From sequence record PZ166175.1: a stretch of 44,735 bases of DNA, one strand, 5' to 3'. Source of the DNA: a phage. The notes under the pieces were generated by a model that worked only from the letters and a program-made list of their open reading frames with translations, was not told where the DNA came from and ran no database searches. This document shows positions 3,393 through 44,735 of the stretch, in pieces; positions within the stretch are counted from its first letter, which is position 1, and the number at the start of each line of letters is the position of its first letter. The position numbers were made by a program, and so were the translations under genes.

Positions 3393-3554
3393 TTAGTAAA
3401 TTATTACCTCGTCTTTTGAGAGGTAGATATCTTCGCCATTCTTGTTCTTTACGATGTAGCAACTACCATCATCACTCATCTCTGCGAAGAACACATCGCC
3501 GCGCTGAATTAGCGCCACATAATCACTCTCGCCAACATAAACAACCTTAATCAT
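3393..3554 (-). CDS. hypothetical small protein (53 aa)
   Basis: hand translation MIKVVYVGESDY...; RBS AAGGTG; stop overlaps next ATG. Confidence 0.35.
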   Translation of the reverse strand: MIKVVYVGESDYVALIQRGDVFFAEMSDDGSCYIVKNKNGEDIYLSKDEVIIY

Positions 3555-10305: not shown

Positions 10306-10679
10306 CGTCTTAAGATTAATGCCATGAGAGCTAAAACCAGCAGACCCATGGATCCTGTTCCAGCCCACGGAAGTGCTGATGATTCGTTATTGGTAATTTC
10401 AATCTTTTCGGCAGTGATTGTGGATGCCTTAATCGAGTTGTCAGCAGTCTTTTTTCCGCTCGAGCTATCCAGGGAACCTACGCTAGAATCCTTAACGGAA
10501 GCATCGCTGGAGTTGCTGGAGTCTACCTTGTTCGTTAACCCGACACCAACCTTATTGTTCTCTGCGCCAGCTTGAGCGCTAATCTCTGGCTTACTGCCAA
10601 TTAAACCAGTCAGCGCAGATGTTGCCGAACACCCAGATAAAGCTGCGCACATTACTAACGCTGCAATCCACTTAAGCAT
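10290..10679 (-). CDS. unimolecular spanin (putative)
   Basis: N-terminal lipoprotein signal with lipobox LSGC plus C-terminal transmembrane helix LLVLALMALIL; last gene of the lysis cassette. Confidence 0.6.
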   Translation of the reverse strand: MLKWIAALVMCAALSGCSATSALTGLIGSKPEISAQAGAENNKVGVGLTNKVDSSNSSDASVKDSSVGSLDSSSGKKTADNSIKASTITAEKIEITNNESSALPWAGTGSMGLLVLALMALILRRKKAS

Positions 10680-11140
10680 AGCTTAATCTCCTCATTCCGG
10701 CGATTTACCAAACCCTTAACAATAACCTTTTTGCCGTTAACGGTAGCTTTATTCCACATCCCCAAAGCCTTACAACCCTGCTCCACTTTACCCTGGTTAA
10801 TTAATTTAACAGCCGTAGACTTCCTCATCGAAGATCCGCCAACGTTGTAGCTAAAGCTAATTAACGCTGCCCTTGTCTGCTGTGCAATTGGGTAGGTAAC
10901 TGCATCCTGAACATGCTTGGCATGAATCTGGATGTGCTTTTCCAGCAGATTTCTGCACTCCCTGTTGCTGTATGTTTTACCCCAGACCACATCTGGACCG
11001 GTAATACCGGAACACACCGTAGGGATTCCGGCAATGTCCATGTAAGGCTTGTTCTCCACACCCTCAACGAGCTCAATAAGCGGCGCTGCGATGTATATTG
11101 CCGCAGCCGTAGCCGCGCTAATTAGCATCTTTTGCTTCAT
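10655..11140 (-). CDS. endolysin, GH24 lysozyme with N-terminal signal-anchor-release-like segment
   Basis: hydrophobic N-terminus ISAATAAAIYIAAPLI followed by lysozyme-like domain; sits between holin and spanin. Confidence 0.7.
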   Translation of the reverse strand: MKQKMLISAATAAAIYIAAPLIELVEGVENKPYMDIAGIPTVCSGITGPDVVWGKTYSNRECRNLLEKHIQIHAKHVQDAVTYPIAQQTRAALISFSYNVGGSSMRKSTAVKLINQGKVEQGCKALGMWNKATVNGKKVIVKGLVNRRNEEIKLCLSGLQR

Positions 11141-11356
11141 TTACTTGCTCCTTATCTTTATTGCTGTTTTTAAGTCTCCTGATTCAAGAGCGCGCCTAAT
11201 CGCCTGGCTGTCTTTGAACTTCCAGTAAGCTCCCCAGGCCCCAAAAATGATTAGAGCGATAAGGCTGATTATTGCTATAGTCATTTGACCAGTTGCCGCG
11301 CCAGTTACCGCAGCCCCGCCGGTTGATGCCGTAGCGGCGTTGATTACTTCCCTCAT
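11141..11356 (-). CDS. holin (putative, single TMD)
   Basis: ORF track 11141..11434; start moved to MREVIN... after RBS AAGGTGG; TMD MTIAIISLIALIIFGAWGAYW; directly upstream of endolysin. Confidence 0.5.
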   Translation of the reverse strand: MREVINAATASTGGAAVTGAATGQMTIAIISLIALIIFGAWGAYWKFKDSQAIRRALESGDLKTAIKIRSK

Positions 11357-11482
11357 GTGATCCACCTTTATGTATTTGTCAATGTTTAAGTTAGTAAAAG
11401 AATGATACATTAGCCCTGCTAGTAAAAGAAGCATAAAAAAGGGGAGCCAAAAGGCCCCCCGCTTGTAAAGCTATGTTTTAGA

Positions 11483-11662
11483 TGCGCTAGTCTTCGATAA
11501 TAAATTCAACTAACGAACCATCAATCGGCGCTAAAATGTGAGTCATGTCATCGCCGTAAATCTTCCAATATCCATCACCCTGGTACTCTGCATTGTACGG
11601 CTGGTTAACTGTAAATGGCAGTGTCTTGGAGTTGTTCTTGGTGCAATAAATCATTTTAGTCA
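11483..11662 (-). CDS. hypothetical small protein (59 aa)
   Basis: hand translation MTKMIYCTKNNSKTLPF...; RBS AACGAGGAAA. Confidence 0.35.
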
Positions 11663-11689
11663 TTTTGTGTTTCCTCGTTTAGTTAATCT

Positions 11690-18759: not shown

Positions 18760-18825
18760 ATGCCTGAAAGATGATACAATCCAATTTAGCAATTCTTGCT
18801 GTTTTACAAATGGAGACTTTACACA
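18760..18825 (+). promoter_or_regulatory. tail fiber promoter candidate (TGATACAAT) with palindrome TTTAGCAATTCTTGCTGTTTT downstream of the -10
   Basis: extended -10-like TGATACAAT then the cassette-type palindrome between -10 and start codon. Confidence 0.4.
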
Positions 18826-21231
18826 ATGGCAATTTATGACTTAGGAACAGCATCACTAGCTGCAAATGGCGAGGTGACTGGAGTCGGTACGACATGGAAA
18901 GCACCACTCACTCTAATTCGAGTTGGTGCAACTATTGTATTTAAAACTGAGCCAGTTAAGATTTATACTATCTCTGAAATTATCAGCGACACTCAGATTA
19001 ATGTTTATAACCCTAATTCTGAAACTGTTCCTGCTGGGACTGGTTACGCGATTCTTGCTCACGATGGAATTACAGTTCAGGGGTTGGCTCAGGATGTTGC
19101 AGAAACCCTTCGTTACTATCAGTCGCGTGAAACAGAAGTTGCAGATGCTGTTGATGCATTTAACAATTTTGACTCTGCTGATTTTAAATCAAAGGTAACG
19201 CAGGTAAACACGCAGTACGGTGATGTTGTTACGATTGCAGAACAGGTAAACACGAAGTACGGTGATATTGTTACGATTGCAGAACAGGTTTCAAGTGATG
19301 CATCATCATCACAAATTAACGCCACCAATGCATCATCTTCCGCCGATAGAGCACAAGCAGCGGCAAACTCCGTGTCTGGATCATTAACTTTAAACTTCTC
19401 AGATGGAGGAACGGTAGAGTCTAAAAATCAGCAGGTTTTATACATCAATGGAAGTGATGTTAAGTCTTATGTCTGGACTGGGTCATTCCCGAAGACGATT
19501 CCAGCTGGCTCAACCCCAGATAGCGCAGGTGGTGTTGGTGCTTACTCATGGGTCAAGATTTATGACTCAAACCTGTTTGATTACGATGGTTTAAGTTCAA
19601 TCGGTAAGGTTAAATCAGTTTCAGAGTTATCTTGTTTGTCAGGTGAGATTGGTATTACTACGATTGAGCTAGAGTCTTATGTGGCTGGATTCAACCTAGG
19701 CGGTGGTACTCTTATCGCGTCAGATGCATCACTTCAGGTTAATAATGTAACTGTTTTTTCAGGGGACGGCGTCACATGGAGCCGTAAACTTAACGGTAGA
19801 AGAGCAACAGTATATGATGCTGGTTACACTGGTGATGGTGATATAGCTGCGGCAATAAACTCAGTAAACATGGCTGGCCTTGACTGCGTTGTTCCTGTAG
19901 ATGGCCTTGTGCAATCACAGATAAACATCGACGTATCAAGAGGTTCATTGATAGGCGAGAACAAGTGCAATATTAAAGAGTCCCCTGGTGCTGTTGGTGA
20001 ATATTTCGTAAACATATTCAACTCAAATACTGATTATGTTGATAGAGACTCGATATCATCAACATCATTGATATCTGGGATTTCATTTACTGGCCTTGGA
20101 GCACGCAAGTTCTGTGTAGGTGGATCAACATCAGGTGAGACTGGCGAATTAAGAATCGAGAACTGCGGAATCATATCAACTGGTGGAATTGAGTTCTTAG
20201 ACAACTCATATAGGATTCTTTTTGATAAGTGCGCAATAAGCAGGAGTTTTAATGAGACAATAACTTTTAGGTCGAGAGCTAACTCTGGTGAAGTTATGAA
20301 GTTTAATCACTGCTGGATTGTAGATAACGGAGGCCCAATCACCTTTGAGAATGGTCAGTTTATTTTTGATTCATGCTCGTTACCGGCAGGTAAAAAGAGT
20401 GGCTATTTTGACCCCACAGTAAGTCTGCACGATAACGCGACGGTAGTTTTCTCAAATGGAAATATAGAGTATCAGCCAGGTCAGAACTTCGTATCATTCC
20501 TGGTCACGGGAAGTTCGAGATTAAGCATAAAAGACACCACCATTCTTGTTCCGGATGGTTTTACGTCTGTTCCAATCGTAAGTAATGATGATGGCGTTGT
20601 AATCTTGAATAATTGTTCGCTTCCTCTATACGGAAGTACCACAATTGCTTCTGGTTTCCAAGCAAGGCAAGTTGTCGGCGGGTCTAGTAAAAAGGTTATC
20701 GCGAGAGGGTGCTTTCCGAGGGCTGGATTCCCTGTTAGTGATTGGAGCAAGGGATCAATTGTTAGCCCTTACATTAACAGCTTAAGCAATGGCAGCGGAC
20801 AGTTTCAGAATACTTCCAACTGGTCACTGTCGCAAACTTCTTCTGGATCGGTTACTGCCTCTATTGTCTCGCAGGTGCCCACAGGTATAACTGCTCAGTT
20901 TGATAGGTCATTCCTTTTGAATGTACCTGACTTAAACTCATCAGCGAACTTTACCACTAATGCTTATGATTGCGAGCCGGGTAGATACTTCCAGTTCGGA
21001 TTTTGGGCCATGAACACAACAAAAACATTAGCAAGTATTAGATTTTTAGATATTTCTGGTAATGCTGTTGAGGAATCTGTAGGTTACTACATACCGAAAG
21101 GTGGTATCTTCTCTTTTTACGCTCTTATATCAACGGTTCCCCAGGGTGCATATAGAGCCGAGATAAACTTTAACGTAGGACCATCCACTGGCTACCTTAT
21201 GTTACACAATGTTATTTATGGATTGATTTAA
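18826..21231 (+). CDS. tail fiber protein (putative)
   Basis: ORF track 18796..21231, start moved to MAIYDLGTASLA...; long Ser/Thr/Gly/Asn-rich protein; internal tandem duplication. Confidence 0.6.
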   Translation: MAIYDLGTASLAANGEVTGVGTTWKAPLTLIRVGATIVFKTEPVKIYTISEIISDTQINVYNPNSETVPAGTGYAILAHDGITVQGLAQDVAETLRYYQSRETEVADAVDAFNNFDSADFKSKVTQVNTQYGDVVTIAEQVNTKYGDIVTIAEQVSSDASSSQINATNASSSADRAQAAANSVSGSLTLNFSDGGTVESKNQQVLYINGSDVKSYVWTGSFPKTIPAGSTPDSAGGVGAYSWVKIYDSNLFDYDGLSSIGKVKSVSELSCLSGEIGITTIELESYVAGFNLGGGTLIASDASLQVNNVTVFSGDGVTWSRKLNGRRATVYDAGYTGDGDIAAAINSVNMAGLDCVVPVDGLVQSQINIDVSRGSLIGENKCNIKESPGAVGEYFVNIFNSNTDYVDRDSISSTSLISGISFTGLGARKFCVGGSTSGETGELRIENCGIISTGGIEFLDNSYRILFDKCAISRSFNETITFRSRANSGEVMKFNHCWIVDNGGPITFENGQFIFDSCSLPAGKKSGYFDPTVSLHDNATVVFSNGNIEYQPGQNFVSFLVTGSSRLSIKDTTILVPDGFTSVPIVSNDDGVVILNNCSLPLYGSTTIASGFQARQVVGGSSKKVIARGCFPRAGFPVSDWSKGSIVSPYINSLSNGSGQFQNTSNWSLSQTSSGSVTASIVSQVPTGITAQFDRSFLLNVPDLNSSANFTTNAYDCEPGRYFQFGFWAMNTTKTLASIRFLDISGNAVEESVGYYIPKGGIFSFYALISTVPQGAYRAEINFNVGPSTGYLMLHNVIYGLI
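19201..19284 (+). repeat. 42-bp tandem duplication (x2) inside the tail fiber gene
   Basis: caggtaaacacgcagtacggtgatgttgttacgattgcagaa repeated with 2 mismatches; encodes QVNTQYGDVVTIAE / QVNTKYGDIVTIAE. Confidence 0.85.
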
Positions 21232-23900: not shown

Positions 23901-24143
23901 ATCGTTGACTTAAGTTTACGTGTTAATACCTTGTAATTCCGCGTAGGCATTGCCACTAGTTACGTTTCTTGGCATCTCAGCCCAGCTATAGCTCAATGTA
24001 ACCATCGTGTATATCGTGTATACCGTTTCTTGCAGAGGTGCATTGGTATAGCTGTCACGCAATACTGTATAAATCAACATGATATTGAAATTATAACCGG
24101 AACACTCTATAGAAGTAGTTACATGATATACACAGTAATATAT

Positions 24144-24158
24144 ATAATAATAATAATA
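24144..24158. repeat. (ATA)5 microsatellite inside the block paralogous to 6267..6337
   Basis: ataataataataata read directly. Confidence 0.8.
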
Positions 24159-24283
24159 AGAGTAAAAGGTTGATATATATAGATATTTTAATGTAACCAA
24201 TGCGTAACTAGGCGTAACAGGGCGTATATCATTTTTCGCGGATTAGATTGCATACATCGAGTTACATCGGTTACGTGTATGCA

Positions 24284-24367: not shown

Positions 24368-24598
24368 ATGACTAACTTAATTAAATCAGCAATCATTGCC
24401 GCGGCAACAATCATGATGGTAGGTTGTTCTTCTGGCCCTCGCCCTGATGGTTGGTGCGCAACGTCCTCAAACGGCGTGTGCGTAGCTAAATGGAAAGGTG
24501 GCGTAGTTGTTCCGGCTGGTGAAATTGACATTCGCTACGATGGAATTAAAGGCTCCGGTGGCTCCGTTCGTGATTATGGCTCTAAGGAGTGGAATTAA
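24368..24598 (+). CDS. outer-membrane lipoprotein, Cor-like superinfection exclusion candidate
   Basis: ORF track 24248..24598 with start moved to ATG after RBS; signal peptide with lipobox MVGC; 76 aa. Confidence 0.5.
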
Positions 24599-25537: not shown

Positions 25538-25563
25538 AAAGCCCCTTTCGGGGCTTTTGTTTT
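25538..25563. terminator. rho-independent terminator (convergent junction with gpJ-like gene)
   Basis: AGCCCC-tttc-GGGGCT followed by TTTTGTTTT. Confidence 0.6.
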
Positions 25564-28500
25564 AGAAAGTACCTACCACAACTCTTCCTCCTCCAGGCAA
25601 GTTAACCGTTATTCCGTTTCCGTTAATCTGTACCGTATTGTTTATTCCGTTGAAAGCGAATTCACCACTGTTGGCGTACAGTTTACCGCGAATCTCAGCG
25701 TTACCAGACTTATCAATCCTCCAGCCTGTGCTTCCTGCTACGTAGTTGCTGGACTGAATAAAGTTACCAATCTTCGCGTTGCTGATTGAGCCATCACCGA
25801 TTACTGCGCTCTGGATGATTACGTTTCCGTTCTCGACAACGAAGGGGAGTTGCCATTGACCGGAGCCAGAACCAATACCATTACTGATTGCGAATCTGTT
25901 TGCGTCAAAGATGAACTGACTGCGAACATTACCACCAGTGCCAACTAGCTCCATGCTCATGCCGGACGAATAAGTCTGTCCATTGTATTTCAGGCCAAGA
26001 CTAATTCCGTACTGTACGCCAGTTGACGTGGCATTAGAGAAAGCATCCAGTTTCTGGTTTAGTGCCGCCTCGTTATCACCCAATCTTGCTGATAGAGCCG
26101 TGTCTGCAGTAGCCCTTGCTTCTGTCTCGGTGGCTAGCGCCGTCTGAACTTCTGTAATCGATGCTACAACTTCATCATCTATCTGTGCTTTAAGGGCTGT
26201 GAGAGCCTCTACGCGCGCCTGAGTTTCATCGGCTATGAGATTAACAGCCTGAACATATTCAGCCTTACGCTTGCCGTTCTCCTTAGTCATGCGACGAACA
26301 TCAGTGTCATTAGCTAATGCGTTCTCAAGAATTGATTCTGCCTGGTTCTGGATGTCCTGATTCTTTTGAATCGCATTCTGTTCGAGGTATTTGAATCCTT
26401 CTGAGCCTTCAATATCAACCTTGATGTAGTCATTGATAATGTTTTCGTCGTCAGTACTCATGCCTCTTGCGAAACTAGACCAATCAGACGTATTACCTAT
26501 TCTGTCAATCAATCTTGCGCGATACCAGATAACCTTACCTGGCTGAATAGGAGTATGCCAGTATTCATAGGCTGGATAAGGCAGCAACGTCAGCAAGCTT
26601 GCGTTATCAGGATTGTAAGTACCATCGCCATTATCAGGAACCTGCTGAAGCTCAGTGTAAGCAGTATCACCAGAGCCATCAGGGAATCCCCATTTAACAC
26701 GGATGCCAAATACCTCATCTGTTGATGCCGTGATAACAGTAGGCGCTGATGGGCGACCAATCTTGCCAGTTAGTGATACCGTTACAATGTCAGACCAGGC
26801 AGACACGTTTTCAGTATCTGATACGCTGCGAACCCTAACGTCATATATTCCTGCGTAAATACCTTCGATATCAACTTCTGTACTAGCTGTTCTTGGTACG
26901 TTAATCCAGTTACCATTTTCCTTCCTCCACTGAACATTGTAGGTTTTGGCGTATGGTGCCTTATCCCATCCGATAACCATCGTCTCAACCGATAAGCCCT
27001 GAACAACCTTACTGTAGCTTGATACAGTCAAGTTTTCTGGTGGCGATAATCTGTCAGGCTCAACAATTGAAGTTGGTCGGTCGACAATATTTACGCCGTA
27101 GTCAATCTCGTCATACTTGTTAGGGTCATACTCTACTGCGGTAATTGTATACTGGAATGAGTCCGAGCCGTCAGAATCTGCTTTTTGAATCCCGGTCACA
27201 ACGTATTGCTGAAGCGCGAGGTTATCCTTGTCGATTGCGAACACAGTATCAGGTTGAGCTACAAAGCTAAAAGCAGTATTCAGGTTGATGGTTCTACCGT
27301 CTTCCGAAATGCTGGCAATAGTTCTCGCTTCAGGGCTTCCGTCTGGTTTGTTCAGAAGAATTCTGTCACCTGGCGCTGCGTCAACTTTAAACGGGGTAAA
27401 AACCTGCAATCCCTGAACTGATTCAATACGACCGGAAAGGTTTAACTGATAGTTGCTGGACCATGCCGCGTCATTGACCGCAATGACCTCTCCAATCATC
27501 GGAATCATGCCCTCCAACCCAGTGGTGAAGCTGATAGTTTCGCTTCTCAGATTGGTTTTTAGGAGCCATCTGCCGCGTCTGTTTGCTTCACTTCTTCTCG
27601 TACATCCGATTGCCGTGAGATCTACTGGGTTGAATCCGAATCGACGAGTGGCTTCCAGTTCAAATACTGGTTCAACATCCTGCTGATAGTTGTTCTCCAC
27701 ATCATCAAACTGAACGTTTGCCGTAGTGTAAAGGCTCTTATCGCTGGCAAATGTGCGGCTGAATAATCCATTAACGACGTTATCATTCGTGAAGATGTAA
27801 GATGGATTACGAGGTTTGTCGACAACAATACCAATCTTTTCGCCATCGTAGAAAGTTAAGCCACGGAAGATTGAGCAGATATCACGAATTAGTGTGTAGG
27901 CCTCAACTTTATTCTGAACAACCATATCGCACAGGTAGCGCGGCTCCATGCCGCCTTTTCCATCTGGAACCATTTGGTCGCAGAATTGCGCAGCCTCGTA
28001 AAGACCCCACTTATCAATCTCTACACCTAGTTCTCGCTGGTCAAGACCGTAGCGGCGGTTTGTCACTAAGTCATACAGAACCCACGCTGGGTTGTTTGAC
28101 CATGCCATTTTGAATAGGCCATTCCATGTCCCGCTGTAAGTTCTGGTTTCAGGGTCGTAGTTAGTTGGGACCTGAATCAGCTTCCATCTCTTCTTGATTG
28201 AGATTGTCGGGATACCGTTAGGGAATAAGTCAGAGCCAAACTCAACGTAAACCAGAGCCGTAAGCGGATAGCGGAATTTAGCATCTATTACTTCCTGATA
28301 GGTTGTAATTTGCATTCCGTTAACCAGGGTGCTACTTGTTGAATCTGGTGTAATCTTGCGGATGCGAACCAGTGCGCTATCAAATTCAGCCGGAAGGTTC
28401 ACGCGAATGCTTCTGTCGTAACCTGTAGTGGTTTTCCCGTTAGCAACTCCGCGAGTGTATTCCTGGTAAGCCCCGCCATTAACAGACAGGTCAATCGCAT

Positions 28501-28972
28501 ACTCGCAAGTAGTTCCGTTCAGATCGCCATTACTTTCTTGCTTAACCAGCCTGGGCCAATATAGCTTTACACGAATCGCTGATAGCTGAGTATTGTTAAC
28601 CGCAATGATGTAAGGGGTATCGTTCGTGATTTCTCTGGAAGCCTGAATCTCTGAGTTAGCACCATCAAGACCAGCGATATAGTCCTGATACTGCGTGCCA
28701 GCACGGAACTCAGCGCGAACACCCTCGTAGTTGTAGCTACCATCCTGGTTTTGCACTGGAACATCAGCAAGGTATAAATCCTTCATTGAGAAGTTTGAAT
28801 CCACCTCTCCGTCAGCAACAGCAAGCAACACCTTAACCTTGTTAAGTGAAATAAGGTTATCTTCCTGTTCAACTGGTTGATGCTGCTTCTGGCTACCGCC
28901 TTTAGCACCATAAATCTTAATCTCTTCAGCCATATCACAAAGCCTCATGTTTGTTTTGATCATTTGTGCCAT
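25562..28972 (-). CDS. central tail fiber / host specificity protein (lambda gpJ-like)
   Basis: 1136-aa ORF at the distal end of the tail module after gpI/K/L/M-like genes. Confidence 0.7.
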   Translation of the reverse strand: MAQMIKTNMRLCDMAEEIKIYGAKGGSQKQHQPVEQEDNLISLNKVKVLLAVADGEVDSNFSMKDLYLADVPVQNQDGSYNYEGVRAEFRAGTQYQDYIAGLDGANSEIQASREITNDTPYIIAVNNTQLSAIRVKLYWPRLVKQESNGDLNGTTCEYAIDLSVNGGAYQEYTRGVANGKTTTGYDRSIRVNLPAEFDSALVRIRKITPDSTSSTLVNGMQITTYQEVIDAKFRYPLTALVYVEFGSDLFPNGIPTISIKKRWKLIQVPTNYDPETRTYSGTWNGLFKMAWSNNPAWVLYDLVTNRRYGLDQRELGVEIDKWGLYEAAQFCDQMVPDGKGGMEPRYLCDMVVQNKVEAYTLIRDICSIFRGLTFYDGEKIGIVVDKPRNPSYIFTNDNVVNGLFSRTFASDKSLYTTANVQFDDVENNYQQDVEPVFELEATRRFGFNPVDLTAIGCTRRSEANRRGRWLLKTNLRSETISFTTGLEGMIPMIGEVIAVNDAAWSSNYQLNLSGRIESVQGLQVFTPFKVDAAPGDRILLNKPDGSPEARTIASISEDGRTINLNTAFSFVAQPDTVFAIDKDNLALQQYVVTGIQKADSDGSDSFQYTITAVEYDPNKYDEIDYGVNIVDRPTSIVEPDRLSPPENLTVSSYSKVVQGLSVETMVIGWDKAPYAKTYNVQWRKENGNWINVPRTASTEVDIEGIYAGIYDVRVRSVSDTENVSAWSDIVTVSLTGKIGRPSAPTVITASTDEVFGIRVKWGFPDGSGDTAYTELQQVPDNGDGTYNPDNASLLTLLPYPAYEYWHTPIQPGKVIWYRARLIDRIGNTSDWSSFARGMSTDDENIINDYIKVDIEGSEGFKYLEQNAIQKNQDIQNQAESILENALANDTDVRRMTKENGKRKAEYVQAVNLIADETQARVEALTALKAQIDDEVVASITEVQTALATETEARATADTALSARLGDNEAALNQKLDAFSNATSTGVQYGISLGLKYNGQTYSSGMSMELVGTGGNVRSQFIFDANRFAISNGIGSGSGQWQLPFVVENGNVIIQSAVIGDGSISNAKIGNFIQSSNYVAGSTGWRIDKSGNAEIRGKLYANSGEFAFNGINNTVQINGNGITVNLPGGGRVVVGTF

Positions 28973-29586: not shown

Positions 29587-30325
29587 AAATTACATCCTCT
29601 GGTAAATCCTTGTGGCGAACGATTCGCACAGTGCGCTCGCGCCAGTAATCGGAGTAGACATCAACGGAGCTCATTTTACCATAAAGATGATGAATGAATC
29701 TGTTGTTGCCAATGTAGATTCCGGCGTGGTTTGTCACCTCGCTTTGCACCTGCATCATAATCATTGAGCCAATTGGAATATCTGAAGTTTTTACCAGCTC
29801 AAATCCTTCCTTAATCCAGTTGTCGTCATAGATATTTTCATTGTACCGCCTCTCCCACCACGGGTAATTAACGCGATAGTCATTCAGTTTTACGCCGTAT
29901 TTCTTGTGAAATTCCATGACTAAGCCCCAGCAATCAAAGCTACCAAGACCCCACGGGCGACCAATAAGAGGCATCGTTGATGGTTCAAGTATTCTCATAT
30001 CTCCCTCTGGTATGCTTACGATAACATATGGAATCTCGCACTCATTGCAGCTACAGATATCCGCAGGGCTGGGTCTTGTCGTGGCTCCATCACCTGTGTG
30101 GGAGTGAACCACGTAAACAATAGATTCACTGTGAGCCAAATTAAAGAGAACATCTGCATACTCATTTGAATCAAGAATAAATTCATGCTCTGGGTCCTTG
30201 CTGGCATTGGTGATTCTGTGATATTTCTGGGCTCGTCCCTTCTGCGTGACAACGCCACAGCATTCTTGCGGGTAAACTTCTTTTGCGTGGTGGAAGATTT
30301 GCAGCTTAACTTTTGGTGTTAACAT
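29567..30325 (-). CDS. tail assembly protein (lambda gpK-like, JAB/MPN + NlpC/P60)
   Basis: ORF track 29567..30349, start moved to MLTPKV...; motifs HSH and DCWGLV...H. Confidence 0.65.
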   Translation of the reverse strand: MLTPKVKLQIFHHAKEVYPQECCGVVTQKGRAQKYHRITNASKDPEHEFILDSNEYADVLFNLAHSESIVYVVHSHTGDGATTRPSPADICSCNECEIPYVIVSIPEGDMRILEPSTMPLIGRPWGLGSFDCWGLVMEFHKKYGVKLNDYRVNYPWWERRYNENIYDDNWIKEGFELVKTSDIPIGSMIMMQVQSEVTNHAGIYIGNNRFIHHLYGKMSSVDVYSDYWRERTVRIVRHKDLPEDVIYDPETD

Positions 30326-30383
30326 TTTATCTCCAATAAAAAAGGCCAATCTCTCGATTGACCCAGTTTAACACTAATTTCGT

Positions 30384-30743
30384 TTATTCAAAATAAACCT
30401 CGAAATCTATAAATACTGAAACACCCTTTGATTTAAGCTCCTCAACCTCTATCAAACTATCATCAAAGAATTTCTTAGTAACATCAATCCCATTCATTCG
30501 ATACTTCATCTTGCCATCGTGAGCATCCTTGCGAGGAGTCACTCCCTCTACTCGTGAGAAGTCGTAACAATCATCACAAGTCATGCTGTTAAATTTTACA
30601 ATATTGCCATTCTCATCTTGAGTCTGATAGTGCCTGTTTGAGTCAACAACATTGCAGGTGTAAATGCAGCCAGCAAAAAACAAACCAGCGCACTTTTCTT
30701 TTTCTTTTTTGTATCCGTTAAATTTAATGTAGAACATTTTCAT
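30384..30743 (-). CDS. hypothetical Cys-rich protein, inserted gene inside the tail operon
   Basis: ORF track; own early-type promoter cassette upstream; multiple Cys pairs. Confidence 0.5.
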   Translation of the reverse strand: MKMFYIKFNGYKKEKEKCAGLFFAGCIYTCNVVDSNRHYQTQDENGNIVKFNSMTCDDCYDFSRVEGVTPRKDAHDGKMKYRMNGIDVTKKFFDDSLIEVEELKSKGVSVFIDFEVYFE

Positions 30744-30744
30744 C

Positions 30745-30815
30745 TCCTCTTGTTTCGATATGGTAACTATAACCCATCTTTCAAAATCGCCTTTAGCAAT
30801 TTGTGCTATTTAGCT
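30745..30815 (-). promoter_or_regulatory. early promoter cassette inside the late tail operon
   Basis: minus sense: AAATAGCACAAATTGCTAAAG, 22 nt, TATAGT, TACCATATCGAAAC, AGAGGAG, ATG. Confidence 0.5.
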
Positions 30816-31565
30816 CTGGTTTGCTTTAGCCTGAAGGCTTGCTGCTGCGCATCCACCAAATGAAATCTGATTATTCTCACCAAATCTAAGCTTGCAGCTA
30901 TTTACCGTTCCGGCGCAGAAGTCTAATGAAGGGTCTGATACTGGGTTATCATCCTTGTCAAAGTAACGATTACCAGCGTAGTCGCAACCATTCCCGCTAC
31001 GATACCAGCCACGTGAAGCCCAATAGCAAACAGACTGAACAAGTCTCGCCGGGATATAAATGCCATCCATATCCATCGGGCTACTAAGCTCAAATGATGC
31101 CGTCTTGTAATCAACCTGCCTAGGTCGCTCAATGAAGTAAACAAATCGGCGATAGTCCCCATCAGCAATACTTCCGTCTTCATTAATATTATCGCGCGTA
31201 GTAATCCAGATTGTAACCTTAGCCTTAACCAATCCATTGTAAGTACGTATAAGTGCGCTAATGCGCTGGTCTACGTTTGATACTGTTAGCGTTACTTTGT
31301 TGGCCTTCCCGTCAGAAGTCATATTGATGCCCGATATACCGAAAGGTCTAGGACCATACTCTTCACCGCGAAATGTAATAGTCTTCTCTGGTAGTGGCTC
31401 CCCATTCATTTGAGCCATCATAATCTCTTCTGGCGTGTATGAAATGTTCTCATTGTGGAAGTTGTAAACGAGACTTCCGAAGGAGGTTCCGTCAACCTGG
31501 ATTAGTGTCACAATCTCGCCAGGGAAAAGGCTTTGCAACTGATTTTCAAACTTTGAACTTAACAT
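30810..31565 (-). CDS. minor tail protein (lambda gpL-like)
   Basis: ORF track 30810..31577, start moved to MLSSKF... after TTGGAGAAA; C-terminal Cys cluster. Confidence 0.6.
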   Translation of the reverse strand: MLSSKFENQLQSLFPGEIVTLIQVDGTSFGSLVYNFHNENISYTPEEIMMAQMNGEPLPEKTITFRGEEYGPRPFGISGINMTSDGKANKVTLTVSNVDQRISALIRTYNGLVKAKVTIWITTRDNINEDGSIADGDYRRFVYFIERPRQVDYKTASFELSSPMDMDGIYIPARLVQSVCYWASRGWYRSGNGCDYAGNRYFDKDDNPVSDPSLDFCAGTVNSCKLRFGENNQISFGGCAAASLQAKANQS

Positions 31566-31577
31566 ATATTTCTCCAA

Positions 31578-31599
31578 TAAAAAAGCCCCTAATGGGGCT
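31578..31599 (-). terminator. terminator-like hairpin between gpM-like and gpL-like genes
   Basis: AGCCCC-atta-GGGGCT followed by TTTTTTATT in minus sense. Confidence 0.5.
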
Positions 31600-31603
31600 T
31601 AGT

Positions 31604-31954
31604 TTAACGCATTGAGCTAAAAACTTCTACGAATTGCATGCTCACAGTCTGAACTTCCTTGCTGAGCGGAGTGACGCTAATGCTATCCTGCTGAATCACG
31701 AACATGGATGTATCACCCTGCGGAGTTGTCCAGAAGAATGGAGTAATGATGTGGTTGAAGCAAAAAACCATCACATCTCTCCAGTCCTTGTTAGTGTATG
31801 TCATCTGGTAGCTTCTAGTGTTACTACGATATCCACCCGTACCCCTTTGGGTGTAACCATTGCCGAAGCTAACAATTCGCACGTTGTTCGTATTACTGAA
31901 TGAAGCTGAGCCACCCTGTATTTGAGTACACCAGTTGAAAGTATCAATAGCCAT
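31604..31954 (-). CDS. minor tail protein (lambda gpM-like)
   Basis: 116-aa ORF directly downstream of tape measure gene. Confidence 0.55.
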   Translation of the reverse strand: MAIDTFNWCTQIQGGSASFSNTNNVRIVSFGNGYTQRGTGGYRSNTRSYQMTYTNKDWRDVMVFCFNHIITPFFWTTPQGDTSMFVIQQDSISVTPLSKEVQTVSMQFVEVFSSMR

Positions 31955-40376: not shown

Positions 40377-40886
40377 TTAAGCTGCAACAGTTGAGTCTGC
40401 GGATTGAATAAGCTGAACTTCAACTAGTGCGCCATCAACGCTTAGATCTTGCGGGTCTGTGCCCTTGTTTTTGATGTAACCACCAGCAAATGTAAAACCA
40501 GTCTCCCAAGTAGTGGTGGCAGCCTTAGCAGCAACAACACCACTCGAGTTTACGTAAACCTTGCTACCAAAGTCCGGCGCAGCATCTAGAGTTGTACGAA
40601 CCCAGATTCGACCATGAGTCATTACGTTAACCGCTTCTTTTACGCGAGCTGTGCCATCTGGAGTCTCGTAATGAGATTTAACAACAACACCATAAGGTTT
40701 AACTGCCGTGCCAGTTACGACTGGGAGTCCAACAACCTTGTGACCATCTACAGGCTGAGCGGATGTAACGCCAACAAAAGTGCCAACCTGAATTGGTGCT
40801 GCACCGCCAACCACACAAGCGCCGTCGATGTTATACAGAGAAGTATCGGAAACCATACCAGCCAGTGCTACGGAACGAATTGCCAT
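40377..40886 (-). CDS. hypothetical abundant head protein (decoration-type candidate)
   Basis: 169-aa ORF followed by its own terminator. Confidence 0.4.
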   Translation of the reverse strand: MAIRSVALAGMVSDTSLYNIDGACVVGGAAPIQVGTFVGVTSAQPVDGHKVVGLPVVTGTAVKPYGVVVKSHYETPDGTARVKEAVNVMTHGRIWVRTTLDAAPDFGSKVYVNSSGVVAAKAATTTWETGFTFAGGYIKNKGTDPQDLSVDGALVEVQLIQSADSTVAA

Positions 40887-42032: not shown

Positions 42033-42761
42033 TTATGATTCCCAATCAGGAACTGACCAGCAACGACAACCGTATTCTTGACCTGGAAATATATCAGCGC
42101 CACCAAGTTTAAAGCTAAGACCTTCTCTCGCTATATGCGATTGTCGCTCTCTTTCATCTAGCATTCCATGCCAGACGTATCGGCTAACACCAGCATCCTC
42201 AAGCCTGCGTCTCATAAGTGTTGAGTTCAGACTTGAGACAATTCCAGATGCAATATTTGCCGTTCGCTTCCTGTATGTTTTGTACCTATCGGATAACTTA
42301 ACGTAGTCCCCACTCTGGATTGTTGACGCCGTCTGCAAAAAGTCATCTTTAATGTTATTCAGCAATTTAATCACTGACTTGTTTGTGGTGTAAACCCACT
42401 GATTAAGGTCATCATTATACCAAGGCTCATCGCCATTGATGCCATTAACTTCAAGGTCTAGAACGCTAGGGTTTGACCTTCCACCGGTCTTAATTGCAAG
42501 CACAAGAAATTGAGAGCTATTGTATCTGTATATAGCTGCACCTATGGCTGGGATGGTTGATATAAATGAAGACACCAGTGCCGCAATTACCCCGTCAAGA
42601 TATCCTTCCTCTTCCTCCAGCTCCTCTGCAGTATCAATTTTAAGTCTTGTTGCTGATTCCCTCATTGCTGAAATTAGCTCAGTTACCGCAATGCTAAGAT
42701 TGCGGTTTACCTGGCTCTCAATTGTCTGTGGGTACTTCCAGCGGGTCATTACTGGTTTCAC
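42033..42761 (-). CDS. head morphogenesis protein (Mu F / SPP1 gp7-like)
   Basis: 242-aa ORF directly downstream of portal; C-terminal motif RQSHIAREG...FPGQEYGCRCW; start may be internal because it overlaps the portal gene. Confidence 0.55.
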   Translation of the reverse strand: MKPVMTRWKYPQTIESQVNRNLSIAVTELISAMRESATRLKIDTAEELEEEEGYLDGVIAALVSSFISTIPAIGAAIYRYNSSQFLVLAIKTGGRSNPSVLDLEVNGINGDEPWYNDDLNQWVYTTNKSVIKLLNNIKDDFLQTASTIQSGDYVKLSDRYKTYRKRTANIASGIVSSLNSTLMRRRLEDAGVSRYVWHGMLDERERQSHIAREGLSFKLGGADIFPGQEYGCRCWSVPDWES

Positions 42762-43986
42762 TAATTGTCACCTCTGTTTCTACTGAACCGTCACTAATCT
42801 TAACCTCTGGAGCGATTGTGCGCAATGTGTCTCTTGCCTCATCAATATCCATAGCGCCAGCTGCAATTAGTGTCGCAATGCTGTTTACGTTCTTCTCAAG
42901 AATCTCGGCCTTATCCTTACTTGATTCCTGCGCTAGGGGATAAAACTCAACTGACCATTCGTCAACGTTAACAATGAACGGGATTAGGAACTCAAGAATA
43001 GGAAGCAGTTCAGAGTTACGCTTGCGGTCAATTAGCTTGTGGAATGTCTCCAGCGCTGTATTCTGGCTTGAGGATACGCCGCCAACGTTCTTATTCTTCA
43101 GGATAATCTCATGAATACCGCTCAGCGCAACAATTCTGTCAAACTTCTTATCCAGGAACGCATCAATCCCGCCAATATCAGAGTTTAGAATGCTATACTC
43201 TTCAGATTCCGCGTCAATGCCAATCGCCTGACCAACGCCGCTATTGTTGTCAACCTGCGCAAGTCGTAATCTTGCAGCGCCAAACCCTTCGCTATCATCA
43301 CACAACTCAGCCAAGCCTTTCGCTTTCCACACTGCTTGCTGCTTTCGTCTCAGTAGTTGGGTAGCGAGTCTTTCGCAGTTGGTGTAATCCTTGATTGAGT
43401 CAAGAATATCACTGGATAGAACGCTTCGGCCCCAGCCATCATTCTGCCGACGCATTGCGTTAGGAATTCGCTCTCCGCCAATGATGTGAATTCTGCTGTA
43501 GTGTACATCATAGAACATATCGCTCTCATCAGTGGTGATTCGATAGGTTAGTGGCTTGCCAAAACGTGCGTTGCGGGGATTCTCTTCGCGAGTTTGTACT
43601 TTTACTTGAGTACGGTCGTAAACGCGAACGGTTTCAAGCTCAGCACCTTCTCTGACCGGACTTGTTAGCGCCCTATTGTCCTTAACGATAGCTACAATTG
43701 CAGCCCCACCGAATAATCTAGCCCACGACCATGCGTCGTTAATATTCTGCGTCATTTCTAGGTCATCCCAGCGAGACCAGAATGCAGGCTCATCATCAAT
43801 ACCATCAATGTGGAATCCTGCCGCTAATGCTGTCTCAGGGATTGTGTCGATAATTCTACGCACTATGGCATTATTTGCATAAAGCGAACCCAGAATTGTA
43901 GGTTCCTGATTCTGTAAGCTCCCGTAAATCTCACTACCATCACTGTCGCCGAGAAATATATTGGCGTAGCTGTCTGTCTTGACCAT
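42718..43986 (-). CDS. portal protein
   Basis: ORF track 42718..43998 (TTG); start moved to MVKTDSY... after GGAGAAAAAC; size and position after TerL. Confidence 0.65.
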   Translation of the reverse strand: MVKTDSYANIFLGDSDGSEIYGSLQNQEPTILGSLYANNAIVRRIIDTIPETALAAGFHIDGIDDEPAFWSRWDDLEMTQNINDAWSWARLFGGAAIVAIVKDNRALTSPVREGAELETVRVYDRTQVKVQTREENPRNARFGKPLTYRITTDESDMFYDVHYSRIHIIGGERIPNAMRRQNDGWGRSVLSSDILDSIKDYTNCERLATQLLRRKQQAVWKAKGLAELCDDSEGFGAARLRLAQVDNNSGVGQAIGIDAESEEYSILNSDIGGIDAFLDKKFDRIVALSGIHEIILKNKNVGGVSSSQNTALETFHKLIDRKRNSELLPILEFLIPFIVNVDEWSVEFYPLAQESSKDKAEILEKNVNSIATLIAAGAMDIDEARDTLRTIAPEVKISDGSVETEVTISETSNDPLEVPTDN

Positions 43987-43997
43987 GTTTTTCTCCA

Positions 43998-44021
43998 ATA
44001 AAAAAGCCCCATGTAGGGGCT
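43998..44021 (-). terminator. rho-independent terminator between the inserted gene and portal
   Basis: AGCCCC-atgta-GGGGCT followed by TTTTTTATT in minus sense. Confidence 0.55.
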
Positions 44022-44042
44022 AGTTTATCACACGGCTTTTAA

Positions 44043-44441
44043 TTACTCGAATTTTACTTCGAACTTGATTGTGTCGCACTTTACACCATCCTCACTAAGC
44101 TCATCTACAGTATAGCGAACACTCCCGAACTCAATCATGTCAACCTCATGCCCGTTTATGTAATATCTAAGTTTTGGTTTTTCATCATTGAGAGTTGGTT
44201 TTTCATTATTGAGAGTTGGCGTGACTACACATTCGGTCTCAGTCACAAAGTTGTCATCTACACCAAGCAGATTGAAATTATGGAGCGATCCGTTTTTAAC
44301 GCAACGGTGACTATTATTATCATCGCAAAGTTCAATAAATCCACCGTGAAAATCGCAAACATCATATTCCTTACCTACGGTGAAGCCCCAATAATCTCCA
44401 TCCGTGCTGCCAAGATATACGGCTTTTAATTTGGTTGTCAT
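44043..44441 (-). CDS. hypothetical Cys-containing protein, inserted gene between TerL and portal
   Basis: ORF track; own early-type promoter cassette and own terminator; internal 21-bp tandem repeat. Confidence 0.55.
   Translation of the reverse strand: MTTKLKAVYLGSTDGDYWGFTVGKEYDVCDFHGGFIELCDDNNSHRCVKNGSLHNFNLLGVDDNFVTETECVVTPTLNNEKPTLNDEKPKLRYYINGHEVDMIEFGSVRYTVDELSEDGVKCDTIKFEVKFE
44175..44216 (-). repeat. 21-bp tandem repeat (x2) inside the inserted gene
   Basis: ttggtttttcatcattgagag / ttggtttttcattattgagag; encodes PTLNNEKPTLNDEKP. Confidence 0.8.
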
Positions 44442-44444
44442 TTG

Positions 44445-44520
44445 TTTTTTCTCCTCTCGTTTGTGTAAGTTAACTATAAGCCATCCGTGTCTTTGGTGTT
44501 TAGCAATTCGTGCTATTTAA
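44445..44520 (-). promoter_or_regulatory. early promoter cassette overlapping the TerL stop codon
   Basis: minus sense: AAATAGCACGAATTGCTAAAC, 22 nt, TATAGT, TAACTTACACAAACGAGAGGAG, ATG. Confidence 0.5.
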
Positions 44521-44735
44521 TTCCAGCTATGCGCATTAATCGCGCTTTGGGATCATCCGCGATGTTAAGCACCAGGTTGATTGCCATTGTCATGGTATCA
44601 ATTTGGTCGTCGTGCTTATGCGAGTCATCCGCCGTAAAAGCTGCAATCTCAGTAAGCAATCCGTTTAACCACGGTGCGGACTCAGGAAGAACTACGTTGC
44701 CAGCTTTAATCTGTGGCAATGCGCTCATTACGCGA
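44513..44735 (-). CDS. terminase large subunit, C-terminal continuation of the ORF that starts at 1343
   Basis: reading frame from position 1 joins across the window junction (codon uses positions 2, 1 and 44735); ends ...HKHDDQIDTMTMAINL... Confidence 0.75.
   Translation of the reverse strand, partial: RVMSALPQIKAGNVVLPESAPWLNGLLTEIAAFTADDSHKHDDQIDTMTMAINLVLNIADDPKARLMRIAGIK

What the first reader, a model, noticed from the sequence alone, without database searches (positions are those of the whole stretch)
43998..44520. Self-contained gene unit between TerL and portal: cassette promoter, 132-aa Cys-containing protein with tandem repeat, own terminator
TerL and portal are normally adjacent. 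Here a 132-aa ORF sits between them, driven by a palindrome cassette that overlaps the TerL stop codon and closed by its own hairpin terminator. It contains a 21-bp tandem repeat (PTLNNEKPTLNDEKP) and several cysteines. It is a candidate accessory function such as anti-defense or host modulation.
Basis: partly seen in the sequence, partly recalled or inferred. Interest (0 to 1): 0.6.

Follow-up and report, generated by a model that had tools for sequence, protein, structure and literature searches.

The report
Fast-evolving accessory gene beside phage portal
A small, dispensable, fast-evolving gene with its own promoter sits between the DNA-packaging (TerL) and portal genes of an Rtp/T1-like coliphage; it belongs to an uncharacterised phage family, has a second copy among the tail genes of the same genome, and its function is still unknown.

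Summary
On the minus strand a 132-aa ORF (44441..44043) lies between the TerL stop (44515..44513) and the portal start (43986). A perfect copy of a 14-copy palindromic promoter cassette precedes it, and a hairpin terminator follows it. A 21-bp x2.2 tandem repeat lies inside it.

Four points need correcting or adding:
- The terminator is not the gene's own. T1 and BEK6 have it at the same site with no ORF.
- The repeat is a private 7-aa duplication in a disordered linker.
- The cysteines are not a conserved motif.
- The gene is not unique. It belongs to PHROG 14592 (Rtp gp22 / JK06 JK_35P). A 119-aa paralog with the same unit architecture sits in the tail module (30743..30384).

The protein has a hypervariable SH3-like, DUF7244-related N-domain, a linker, and a conserved beta-beta-alpha-beta C-domain. 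It is dispensable (absent or frameshifted in close relatives) and lower in GC than its flanks. Its nonsynonymous divergence is about 7 times that of portal at equal synonymous divergence, and N-domains shuffle between loci.

It is best read as a moron-type accessory gene, probably transcribed with the replication genes. An anti-defence or host-interaction role is plausible but untested. The 'virion structural protein' label has no experimental basis that I could find.

The parts
44513..44735 (-). 3' end of the large terminase (TerL) gene; stop codon TAG at 44515..44513
   Evidence: Terminase_6C, E 1e-4. Relatives annotate terminase large subunit here.
44499..44516 (-). Palindromic core of the promoter cassette, ATAGCACGAATTGCTAAA (inverted repeat TAGCA-N5-TGCTA). 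It contains the TerL stop codon.
   Evidence: Perfect copy. The window holds 14 copies against 0.06 expected. The cassette is conserved at the same place in most relatives checked.
44473..44502 (-). Predicted sigma-70-type promoter: weak -35 TAAACA (44502..44497), 18-nt spacer, -10 TATAGT (44478..44473). The palindrome would be centred near -42.
   Evidence: Consensus scan. The same layout occurs at the other cassettes. Function is not tested.
44451..44458 (-). Ribosome-binding site GAGAGGAG, with 9 nt between it and the ATG
   Evidence: Read from the sequence. Conserved in relatives.
44043..44441 (-). 132-aa ORF of PHROG 14592. N-terminal SH3-like domain at residues 1-61, disordered linker at 62-86, beta-beta-alpha-beta C-domain at 87-132.
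   Evidence: PHROG E 1.2e-33. 52 homolog clusters. AF2 models. dN/dS below 1.
44174..44219 (-). 21-bp tandem repeat, 2.2 copies. It is an in-frame 7-aa duplication (PTLNNEK/PTLNDEK) in the linker.
   Evidence: TRF score 85. It forms a 7-column insertion relative to all 30 aligned homologs. It lies in the segment with pLDDT below 50.
43999..44021 (-). Intrinsic terminator hairpin AGCCCCTACATGGGGCT plus a T-run. It is ancestral to the TerL|portal junction.
   Evidence: Present in the empty sites of BEK6 and T1.
42718..43986 (-). Portal gene. The probable start is ATG 43986, preceded by TTATTGGAGAAAAAC.
   Evidence: Phage_portal_3, E 1.7e-66. The start context is conserved in relatives.
30323..30812 (-). 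Paralogous unit in the tail module. Cassette ATAGCACAAATTGCTAAA (30809..30792) abuts the stop of the 255-aa minor tail gene. Then come the 119-aa ORF (30743..30384; the ATG best placed behind the RBS is 30737, giving 117 aa), hairpin GGTCAATCGAGAGATTGGCC plus T6 (30363..30338), and TTATTGGAGATAAA-ATG of the next tail gene.
   Evidence: PHROG 14592, E 1.4e-33. Sequence. 30% identical to ORF132.
11490..11663 (-). Standalone 58-aa DUF7244 (SH3-clan) protein next to the lysis cassette. It is a distant relative of the N-domain of ORF132.
   Evidence: Pfam DUF7244, E 4.7e-28. The N-domain HMM hits it at E 2.5e-6. hhalign probability 60%, E 8.7e-5.

Best explanation
The region is a moron-type accessory gene unit of an Rtp-like Drexlerviridae coliphage.

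Shown:
- A promoter cassette plus ORF is inserted exactly between the TerL stop codon and the ancestral TerL terminator.
- The ORF is a real, translated-looking gene of PHROG 14592. It encodes an acidic (pI 4.6) two-domain protein with no signal-peptide-like N-terminus: a hypervariable SH3-like N-domain distantly related to DUF7244, a disordered indel-tolerant linker, and a conserved 45-aa beta-beta-alpha-beta C-domain.
- The gene is dispensable, lower in GC than its flanks, and fast-evolving.
- It has a paralog in the tail module. N-domains recombine between the paralogous loci.

Inferred:
- Host sigma-70 RNA polymerase transcribes it from the same promoter class that drives the helicase, primase and Erf-recombinase genes and the small early ORFs. 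The transcript would stop at the terminator and be short and monocistronic. Expression would therefore be independent of, and probably earlier than, the surrounding packaging and head genes.
- The protein most likely acts inside the infected cell as a modular binding adaptor. The constant C-domain would provide self-association or docking. The variable SH3-like domain would bind a rapidly changing partner, most plausibly a host factor or defence protein.
- It is therefore an accessory phage-host conflict gene, not a packaging or head component.
For: Insertion geometry:
- BEK6 reads ...AAATAG|CCGTGATAAACTAGCCCC-hairpin-TTATTGGAG-ATG(portal). The window carries about 470 extra bases at '|'.
- T1 has TerL, terminator and portal with no ORF.

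Family:
- PHROG 14592, E 1.2e-33.
- 34 phage records, and in all 20 loci examined the gene lies between TerL and portal.
- Only 44 representatives among 1.84 billion proteins.

Dispensability:
- Absent from BEK6 and T1. Msk, OzMSK, BEK1-1, FP and A110b show only TerL and portal features or 77% coverage in two pieces.
- Frameshifted in phiEB49, ACG-M12 and IMM-001.

Composition: 39.6% GC against 46.8-47.5% in the flanks. The paralog is 35.8% against 44%.

Evolution:
- N-domain pN 0.32 at pS 0.53. Portal pN 0.048 at pS 0.48.
- dN/dS is about 0.44 against 0.07. It is 0.8 for the closest pair.

Promoter class:
- 14 cassettes against 0.06 expected.
- Twelve lie in the non-structural half. They precede the DNA helicase, the DNA primase, the Erf operon and small unknown ORFs.
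- The only two in the 19-kb late block both drive PHROG 14592 genes.

Structure:
- C-domain model has pLDDT 93.

Modularity: the N-domains are nearly identical over about the first 57 residues (52/57 and 50/57) but are joined to C-domains of different types. An N-N-C form and a C-only form also exist.
Against: - No homology to any characterised anti-defence, defence or host-takeover protein. Pfam, NCBIfam, PADLOC and PDB are all negative.
- Gene-wide dN/dS is below 1, so positive selection is not demonstrated. The pattern also fits relaxed constraint.
- Promoter activity and timing are predicted from sequence only. The -35 hexamer is weak, and the promoter of the late operon was not identified for comparison.
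- The gene and its paralog lie inside structural modules. The C-domain type correlates with locus. This would also fit docking to head or tail parts.
- Databases label the family 'virion structural protein'.
Confidence: 0.55

Rival explanations
1. It is a non-essential virion-associated decoration or adhesin. The conserved C-domain would dock onto a conserved virion part: type 1 near the head or portal, type 2 on the tail tip. The SH3-like domain, held on a flexible linker, would be displayed on the particle and bind cell-surface or environmental ligands.
For: - Both paralogs lie inside structural modules.
- The two C-domain types are tied to their loci in the 20 head-site and 3 tail-site loci examined, while N-domains are interchangeable.
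- A promoter plus terminator around a single ORF is also how abundant structural genes are often set off. T1 and this window have terminators after the major capsid and major tail genes.
- SH3-clan domains often bind cell-wall or carbohydrate ligands (established knowledge).
- PHROG and RefSeq label the family 'virion structural protein'.
Against: - The label traces to JK06's unsupported 'hypothetical minor outer capsid protein'. The original submitters of most other records call it hypothetical.
- The protein is not among the virion proteins identified in two T1-like proteomes (PMC4070988; PMC3496638). Those were gel-band analyses, and I did not check whether those phages carry the gene.
- The type-2 unit sits at two different tail junctions: gpL|gpK in the window and gpM|gpL in JulesPiccard. 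This fits a movable cassette better than a position-specific structural gene.
- It uses the promoter class of the replication genes.
- The phage already encodes a cement-type protein, Phage_cement/XM1_gp53.
- There is no fold match to known decoration proteins.
Confidence: 0.22
2. It is a selfish or near-neutral mobile cassette. The promoter-ORF(-terminator) module would spread among terminator-proximal intergenic sites by recombination between the repeated cassettes and the shared terminator/RBS motifs. It would bring little benefit to the phage.
For: - Three different insertion sites are occupied.
- Presence and absence vary independently at each site.
- Several copies are frameshifted.
- HNH homing endonucleases occupy the same junctions in AugustePiccard, RobRod40 and DTL.
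- dN/dS is near 0.8 for the closest pair.
- GC content is low.
Against: - Fold-defining residues are invariant (G11, T21, Y26, N50, I95, N96, F105, I125, E128, V129, K130). The C-terminal 14 codons have pN 0.03 at pS 0.31. The protein is therefore under purifying selection.
- It has no nuclease, transposase or integrase features. H98 of the beta-beta-alpha element is not invariant.
- Intact ORFs are kept across two subfamilies, Braunvirinae and Rogunavirinae.
Confidence: 0.12
3. It is a lysis- or envelope-related SH3 protein. The N-domain would share the still unknown role of the standalone DUF7244 SH3 protein that sits beside the lysis cassette of Drexlerviridae, for example peptidoglycan binding or endolysin modulation.
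For: - The N-domain is distantly related to the window's own DUF7244 protein, which lies next to a holin-like ORF and a Phage_lysozyme ORF.
- PMC13164509 proposes a lysis-related role for DUF7244.
Against: - ORF132 itself gives no Pfam DUF7244 hit, and only 14 of 60 family members give sub-threshold hits. hhalign probability is only 60%.
- The protein has no signal-peptide-like or hydrophobic N-terminus that would take it to the periplasm (read from the sequence; no predictor was run).
- The DUF7244 function is itself only a hypothesis.
- The gene is not linked to the lysis genes.
Confidence: 0.08
4. It is not a gene: a chance ORF lying between regulatory elements.
For: None beyond its small size.
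Against: - Strong RBS.
- About 100 homolog clusters with conserved residues across the two paralog groups.
- dN/dS below 1.
- Confident AF2 domains, pLDDT 93 for the C-domain.
Confidence: 0.01

Closest known systems
PHROG 14592 (Rtp gp22, JK06 JK_35P, phiEB49 gp57/gp37, BASEL bas01_0005 and bas03_0004); function unknown
   Same: Full-length HMM match at E 1.2e-33. Same position between TerL and portal in all 20 loci examined. Same promoter cassette, RBS and terminator context.
   Different: The window's allele is at most 74% identical to any known member. It carries a private 7-aa linker duplication. The family label 'virion structural protein' has no experimental basis that I could find.
Morons of lambdoid phages (promoter-gene-terminator units inserted between genes that are adjacent in relatives; Juhala/Hendrix concept, e.g. 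HK97 gp15) - from established knowledge
   Same: It is inserted between two genes that are adjacent in relatives. It has its own predicted promoter and is followed by a terminator. Its base composition differs from the flanks. It is dispensable.
   Different: The host phage is virulent, so there is no prophage-state expression. The head-site terminator predates the insertion. The promoter is the phage's own multi-copy cassette, not a foreign one. The family has paralogs at up to three late-operon sites, with domain shuffling between them.
DUF7244 (PF23896), the standalone SH3-clan protein beside the Drexlerviridae lysis cassette (PMC13164509)
   Same: Small five-stranded SH3-like barrel. There is weak but recurrent sequence similarity and structural similarity at TM about 0.7. 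A bona fide DUF7244 gene is present in the same genome.
   Different: ORF132 does not reach the Pfam threshold. It carries an extra linker and C-domain. It lies in the late operon and not by the lysis genes.
Gp54 of phage Bas11 (PDB 9AXB), a small non-essential SH3-like protein that triggers the CapRelSJ46 defence (PMC11578894)
Capsid cement and decoration proteins (e.g. Pfam Phage_cement / XM1_gp53_minor_capsid)
   Same: Small, encoded in the head module, and possibly highly expressed.
   Different: No sequence or fold similarity. The phage has a separate cement-type gene: window 40377..40886 is the 169-aa ORF in the same position as the 169-aa gene of a relative (L014) that carries these Pfam hits.

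Membership tests
PHROG 14592 | Significant full-length match to the family HMM | tested here: met
   E 1.2e-33, residues 5-132 on profile positions 2-116 of 116. The paralog scores E 1.4e-33.
Moron (promoter-gene-terminator insertion) | The gene lies between two genes that are directly adjacent in related phages | tested here: met
   BEK6 and T1 have TerL, terminator and portal with no ORF.
Moron (promoter-gene-terminator insertion) | Own promoter immediately upstream | tested here: inconclusive
   A perfect copy of the 14-copy cassette with a TATAGT -10 is present and conserved in relatives. Activity was not tested, and the -35 is weak.
Moron (promoter-gene-terminator insertion) | Own terminator brought in with the gene | tested here: not met
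   At the TerL|portal site the hairpin is present in empty sites, so it predates the ORF. The type-2 paralog unit does carry its own hairpin at two different sites.
Moron (promoter-gene-terminator insertion) | Base composition distinct from the flanking genes | tested here: met
   39.6% GC against 46.8-47.5%. The paralog is 35.8% against about 44%.
Pfam DUF7244 (SH3 clan) | Score above the Pfam gathering threshold | tested here: not met
   ORF132 gives no hit at E<=1. 14 of 60 family members give sub-threshold hits, best E 0.0065. hhalign probability is 60%. Fold-level similarity is present.
Virion structural or decoration protein | Physical presence in purified virions | not testable with these tools
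   Two published T1-like virion proteomes do not list it. They were gel-band limited, and the gene content of those phages was not checked.
Virion structural or decoration protein | Homology or fold similarity to a known decoration or cement family | tested here: not met
Zinc-binding or Cys-rich protein | A conserved set of four Cys/His ligands | tested here: not met
   C29, C39, C47, H32 and H45 are variable. Only C122 (50/51), H54 (45/51), C71 (40/51) and H98 (40/51) recur, and they lie in different domains.
HNH / beta-beta-alpha-Me nuclease | Invariant catalytic His and metal-ligand Asn/His on the beta-beta-alpha element | tested here: not met
Known anti-phage defence proteins (PADLOC) | Match to a defence-system HMM | tested here: not met
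   No hit at E<=1 for either paralog.
Known anti-defence proteins | Homology to a characterised inhibitor, or a demonstrated inhibition phenotype | not tested
   No anti-defence library was available. Pfam, NCBIfam and PDB give nothing.

The most novel reading that the evidence does not exclude
PHROG 14592 units are movable, self-expressed modules of Drexlerviridae. They settle at terminator-proximal junctions of the late operon: TerL|portal, gpM|gpL and gpL|gpK. They are switched on with the replication genes. They encode a two-part counter-defence or decoy protein. Its hypervariable SH3-like head is swapped between loci by recombination to keep pace with host immunity sensors, for example sensors that watch terminase, portal or small SH3-like phage proteins. 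The constant C-domain would oligomerise or dock the protein.
Probability: 0.25. Interest if true: 0.65.

Novelty: new member of a known kind. Interest (0 to 1): 0.4.

Why it matters
T1/Rtp-like phages are common laboratory and therapeutic coliphages, and about half of their genes are uncharacterised. This analysis gives four practical results:
- It turns an apparent singleton into a defined family, with clear domain boundaries, insertion sites and natural knock-outs (empty sites and frameshifted copies).
- It shows that the database label 'virion structural protein' is not backed by data that I could find.
- It provides natural phage pairs that carry or lack the gene (for example BEK2 against BEK6), which makes a host-range or defence-panel test straightforward.
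- If the protein proves to be an immune antagonist or trigger, its shuffled SH3-like domain would be a compact example of modular arms-race evolution inside a structural operon. If it is a decoration protein, it would be a handle for display on T1-like particles.

Tried and rejected
- **Conserved Cys/His metal site:** rejected. The ligands are not conserved.
- **Sequence libraries:** Pfam, NCBIfam, PADLOC and a PDB profile search gave no meaningful hits.
- **Origin of the 'virion structural' label:** the two open-access T1-like proteome papers do not list this protein. The Rtp and phiEB49 genome papers are not held. No paper mentions the locus tags. There is no Drexlerviridae cryo-EM decoration paper in the library.
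- **IMG/VR scan:** only 3 loci, so relatives were taken from GenBank phage records and assembly look-ups instead.
- **Transcriptome data on Drexlerviridae promoters:** none found.
- **Nucleotide-level (RNA or recombination) constraint on the last 27 nt of the ORF:** rejected. pS there is 0.31 and pN 0.03. The paralog keeps the peptide F-E-V-x-F-E with different codons, so the constraint is on the protein.
- **Small ORF 3396..3554 as another N-domain relative:** not supported (hhalign probability 4.6%).
- **Long proteins in the 1.84-billion-protein search (3921 aa, 1539 aa and others):** they match only short stretches and were not pursued.
Full report
**Context**

The window is an almost complete genome of an Rtp-like Drexlerviridae (Braunvirinae) coliphage. 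The region 42700-44735 matches 90 phage records, best to BEK2/BEK3 at 90% identity and Rtp at 87%. The structural genes run on the minus strand. The last 73 codons in the window are the TerL C-terminus (Terminase_6C). The 422-aa ORF downstream is the portal (Phage_portal_3, E 1.7e-66), followed by a Mu-F-like head morphogenesis protein.

**The observation**

Read on the minus strand:
- TerL ends with TAG at 44515..44513.
- A 71-nt spacer follows, then a 132-aa ORF (ATG 44441, TAA 44045..44043) with AGGAG 9 nt upstream.
- Then comes the hairpin AGCCCCTACATGGGGCT plus T6 (44021..43999). Its folding energy is -16.3 kcal/mol, z = -2.7.
- Then TTATTGGAGAAAAAC-ATG, the portal start at 43986.
- The spacer begins with ATAGCACGAATTGCTAAA (44516..44499), which contains the TerL stop. 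This 18-mer has the inverted repeat TAGCA-N5-TGCTA. It occurs 14 times in the window at <=3 mismatches against 0.06 expected, and the copy here is perfect.
- TAAACA-18-TATAGT follows at 44502..44473.
- Tandem Repeats Finder reports a 21-bp unit x2.2 at 44174-44219, 96% match, score 85.

**What the surroundings show about the unit**

- Phage BEK6 reads GGAATTAAATAG|CCGTGATAAACTAGCCCC-hairpin-TTTTTTATTGGAGAAAAACATGGTC at this junction. The window has the same flanks with about 470 extra bases at '|'.
- T1 likewise has TerL, an annotated terminator and portal with no intervening ORF.
- The insertion therefore consists of promoter cassette plus ORF. The terminator is the ancestral TerL terminator and not the gene's own.
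- Flank-matching records such as Msk, OzMSK, BEK1-1, FP and A110b list only TerL and portal features at the junction, or cover 77% of the query in two pieces.
- In phiEB49, ACG-M12 and IMM-001 the copy is frameshifted.
- In AugustePiccard and RobRod40 an HNH endonuclease gene sits between TerL and the cassette.
- The cassette, the GCCACGGATGGC spacer, TATAGTTAC, the RBS and the terminator context are conserved upstream and downstream of the homologous gene in most of the relatives checked.

**The family**

- The ORF matches PHROG 14592 over its full length (E 1.2e-33). It has no Pfam or NCBIfam family.
- tblastn finds it in 34 phage records of Braunvirinae and Rogunavirinae. In all 20 loci I examined it lies between TerL and portal.
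- The 5.8-billion-protein search finds 52 clusters at 90% identity, most with 1-2 members. The best has 70% BLASTP identity (74% in the alignment), so this allele is new.
- A profile search of 1.84 billion representatives finds only 44 at E<=1e-3, nearly all 105-140 aa and unnamed. The family is narrow.
That protein was annotated in 2005 as 'hypothetical minor outer capsid protein'.
- I found no experimental support for the label. Two T1-like virion proteomes identify other proteins, and no paper mentions the locus tags.

**Architecture of the protein**

AlphaFold2 with a 51-sequence alignment gives three segments:
- a five-stranded beta domain at residues 4-59, pLDDT about 80;
- a disordered segment at 62-85, pLDDT below 50;
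- a beta-beta-alpha-beta domain at 91-131, pLDDT about 90. Modelled alone, this domain reaches pLDDT 93.

N-domain:
- Foldseek against viral models finds 55-68-aa phage proteins, including DUF7244 members, at TM about 0.7.
- The window encodes a bona fide DUF7244 protein (11490..11663, E 4.7e-28) next to a holin-like ORF and a lysozyme.
- An HMM of the N-domain hits that protein at E 2.5e-6 among the window's ORFs. hhalign gives probability 60%, E 8.7e-5. 14 of 60 family members give sub-threshold DUF7244 hits, and no other family recurs as often.
- I read the N-domain as a distant SH3-clan relative of DUF7244, below Pfam's threshold.

Other properties:
- pI is 4.6. No signal-peptide-like or hydrophobic N-terminus is evident in the sequence; no predictor was run.
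- The tandem repeat falls in the disordered linker. It is a 7-column insertion relative to all 30 aligned homologs. P0003 and P0004 carry the single copy PTLNDEKPKL.
- Linker length varies widely in the family.
- Three of the five cysteines are rare or private, and there is no conserved Cys/His set.

**A paralog and movable units**

- The 119-aa ORF at 30743..30384 hits the same PHROG (E 1.4e-33) and is 30% identical to ORF132.
- Its unit has the same design: cassette ATAGCACAAATTGCTAAA abutting the stop of the upstream minor tail gene, RBS, ORF, a hairpin (GGTCAATCGAGAGATTGGCC plus T6), and TTATTGGAGATAAA-ATG of the next tail gene.
- These are the only two cassette copies in the 19-kb late block.
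- The other twelve lie in the non-structural half. They precede the DNA helicase, the DNA primase, the Erf-recombinase operon and small unknown ORFs.
- The tail-site paralog is also polymorphic. SU57, ACG-M12, BEK6 and phiEB49 have it. RobRod40, UALMA_PCEc3, Msk and BEK1-1 have the two minor tail genes adjacent. DTL has an HNH endonuclease there. Rtp, BEK2 and IME253 gave no tblastn hit to it.
- The two sites vary independently. BEK6 has the tail copy only. BEK2, Rtp and IME253 have the head copy only. Msk has neither.
- In JulesPiccard a type-2 unit, with the same hairpin, sits at a third junction, gpM|gpL. AugustePiccard has one at gpL|gpK.
- Chimeras exist. P0094 against P0044, and P0100 against P0052, share nearly identical N-domains (52/57 and 50/57 over the first 57 residues) joined to type-2 and type-1 C-domains respectively. 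An N-N-C protein and a C-only protein also exist.
- Both window paralogs are lower in GC than their flanks: 39.6% against 47%, and 35.8% against 44%.

**Rates of evolution**

I computed Nei-Gojobori estimates on 14 loci, 91 pairs.

| Region | pS | pN | dN/dS |
|---|---|---|---|
| N-domain | 0.53 | 0.32 | 0.44 |
| C-domain | 0.43 | 0.20 | 0.36 |
| Last 14 codons | 0.31 | 0.03 | - |
| Portal | 0.48 | 0.048 | 0.066 |

- Synonymous divergence is the same as in the flank. Amino-acid change is about seven-fold faster.
- No pair has gene-wide dN/dS above 1. The closest pair (window against P0001) has 0.8.
- This shows a real coding gene under weak or heterogeneous constraint. Positive selection is possible but not demonstrated.

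**Interpretation**

The shown facts fit the definition of a moron-type accessory unit. Two departures apply: the head-site terminator is older than the insertion, and the promoter is the phage's own multi-copy cassette.

The promoter class links the gene with replication and recombination genes and not with its late neighbours. I therefore infer, without test, independent and probably earlier expression. This argues against a stoichiometric packaging or head role.

The family has a constant C-domain and a hypervariable, exchangeable SH3-like domain on a flexible tether. It is also dispensable and patchily distributed. These properties are what one expects of a binding adaptor engaged with a fast-changing partner. 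I commit to an intracellular phage-host conflict role (antagonist, decoy or sponge) as the most likely mechanism. My confidence is about 0.55 for the accessory, non-structural reading as a whole, and about 0.25-0.3 for anti-defence specifically.

The main rival is a non-essential virion decoration or adhesin whose C-domain type matches its docking site (0.22). The module location and the locus-specific C-domains support it. The unsupported label, the movable type-2 unit, the promoter class and the lack of fold similarity to decoration proteins weaken it. A near-neutral selfish cassette (0.12) and a lysis-related SH3 role (0.08) remain possible.

**Novelty and score**

The gene is a new allele of an existing but uncharacterised family, in a known kind of arrangement. 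Several points appear undescribed in the literature I could search:
- the paralogous units;
- the three insertion sites;
- the domain shuffling;
- the link to DUF7244;
- the promoter-class argument.

None of them establishes a function. Interest is 0.4.

Noticed in passing
window 30323-30812 (-): A second self-contained unit of the same family (119-aa ORF, PHROG 14592) lies between the gpL-like and gpK-like minor tail genes. It has the same cassette, RBS and terminator/RBS design. It is independently present or absent in relatives.
   Followed up: yes
window 3255, 3954, 4507, 5334, 14736, 18785, 22640, 30792, 44499 (-); 6620, 7450, 8279, 17746, 24284 (+): There is a 14-copy palindromic cassette, ATAGCACGAATTGCTAAA (TAGCA-N5-TGCTA). 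It is followed at a fixed distance (22 nt from TTGCTA in the copies measured) by TATAGTTAC, often by CCATCGAAAC, and then by an RBS. The -35 is weak and the palindrome would be centred near -42. This suggests activator-dependent promoters that also standardise the 5' UTR. In several copies the spacer and the bases after the -10 form an inverted repeat around the -10 (e.g. GGGGTAAC...GTTACCCC at 3954). No regulator was identified.
   Followed up: partly
window 11490-11663 (-): A standalone 58-aa DUF7244 (SH3-clan) gene lies directly upstream of a holin-like ORF (11141..11434), a lysozyme (10655..11140) and a probable spanin. This is the arrangement described for T1 and KanT1 in PMC13164509.
   Followed up: partly
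window 43984-44032, 31563-31611, 30326-30350: A recurrent design occurs in the late operon: a GC-rich hairpin followed directly by TTTTTTATTGGAGA-N4-5-ATG, that is, a terminator fused to the RBS of the next late gene. T1 has it too. Late genes must therefore be read through many terminators. How this happens (leakiness or antitermination) is unexplained.
   Followed up: no
window 6253-6344 and 24008-24195: Two copies of an AT-rich block of about 90 bp (TACACAGTATACATATATATAATAATAATAA...AGTAAAAnGTTGATATATATAGATATT) lie 17.85 kb apart, with an inverted partner at 24008-24037. Possibly an origin or regulatory region.
   Followed up: no
window 19201-19284 (+): A perfect-register 42-bp tandem duplication (95% identical) lies inside the 811-aa ORF 18796..21231.
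   Followed up: no
L007 1034-1429 (AugustePiccard), L016 953-1429 (RobRod40), DTL tail locus (H97): HNH homing-endonuclease genes occupy the same intergenic junctions (TerL|cassette and the minor-tail junction) that hold the PHROG 14592 units. These junctions look like general insertion hot spots.
   Followed up: partly
L010 (phiEB49), L022 (ACG-M12), L019 (IMM-001): The head-site copies are split by frameshifts. They are either pseudogenes or sequencing errors. In phiEB49 and ACG-M12 the tail-site paralog is intact.
   Followed up: partly
window 2384-2458 (-): A single tRNA gene (Rfam RF00005, 59.6 bits).
   Followed up: no
window 24368-24598 (+): A cassette-driven 76-aa ORF has a lipoprotein-type signal (…MMVGC|SS), PHROG 4281, function unknown. 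It lies just beyond the J-like tail tip gene (25562..28972, opposite strand), so it is a candidate Cor-like superinfection-exclusion lipoprotein.
   Followed up: no
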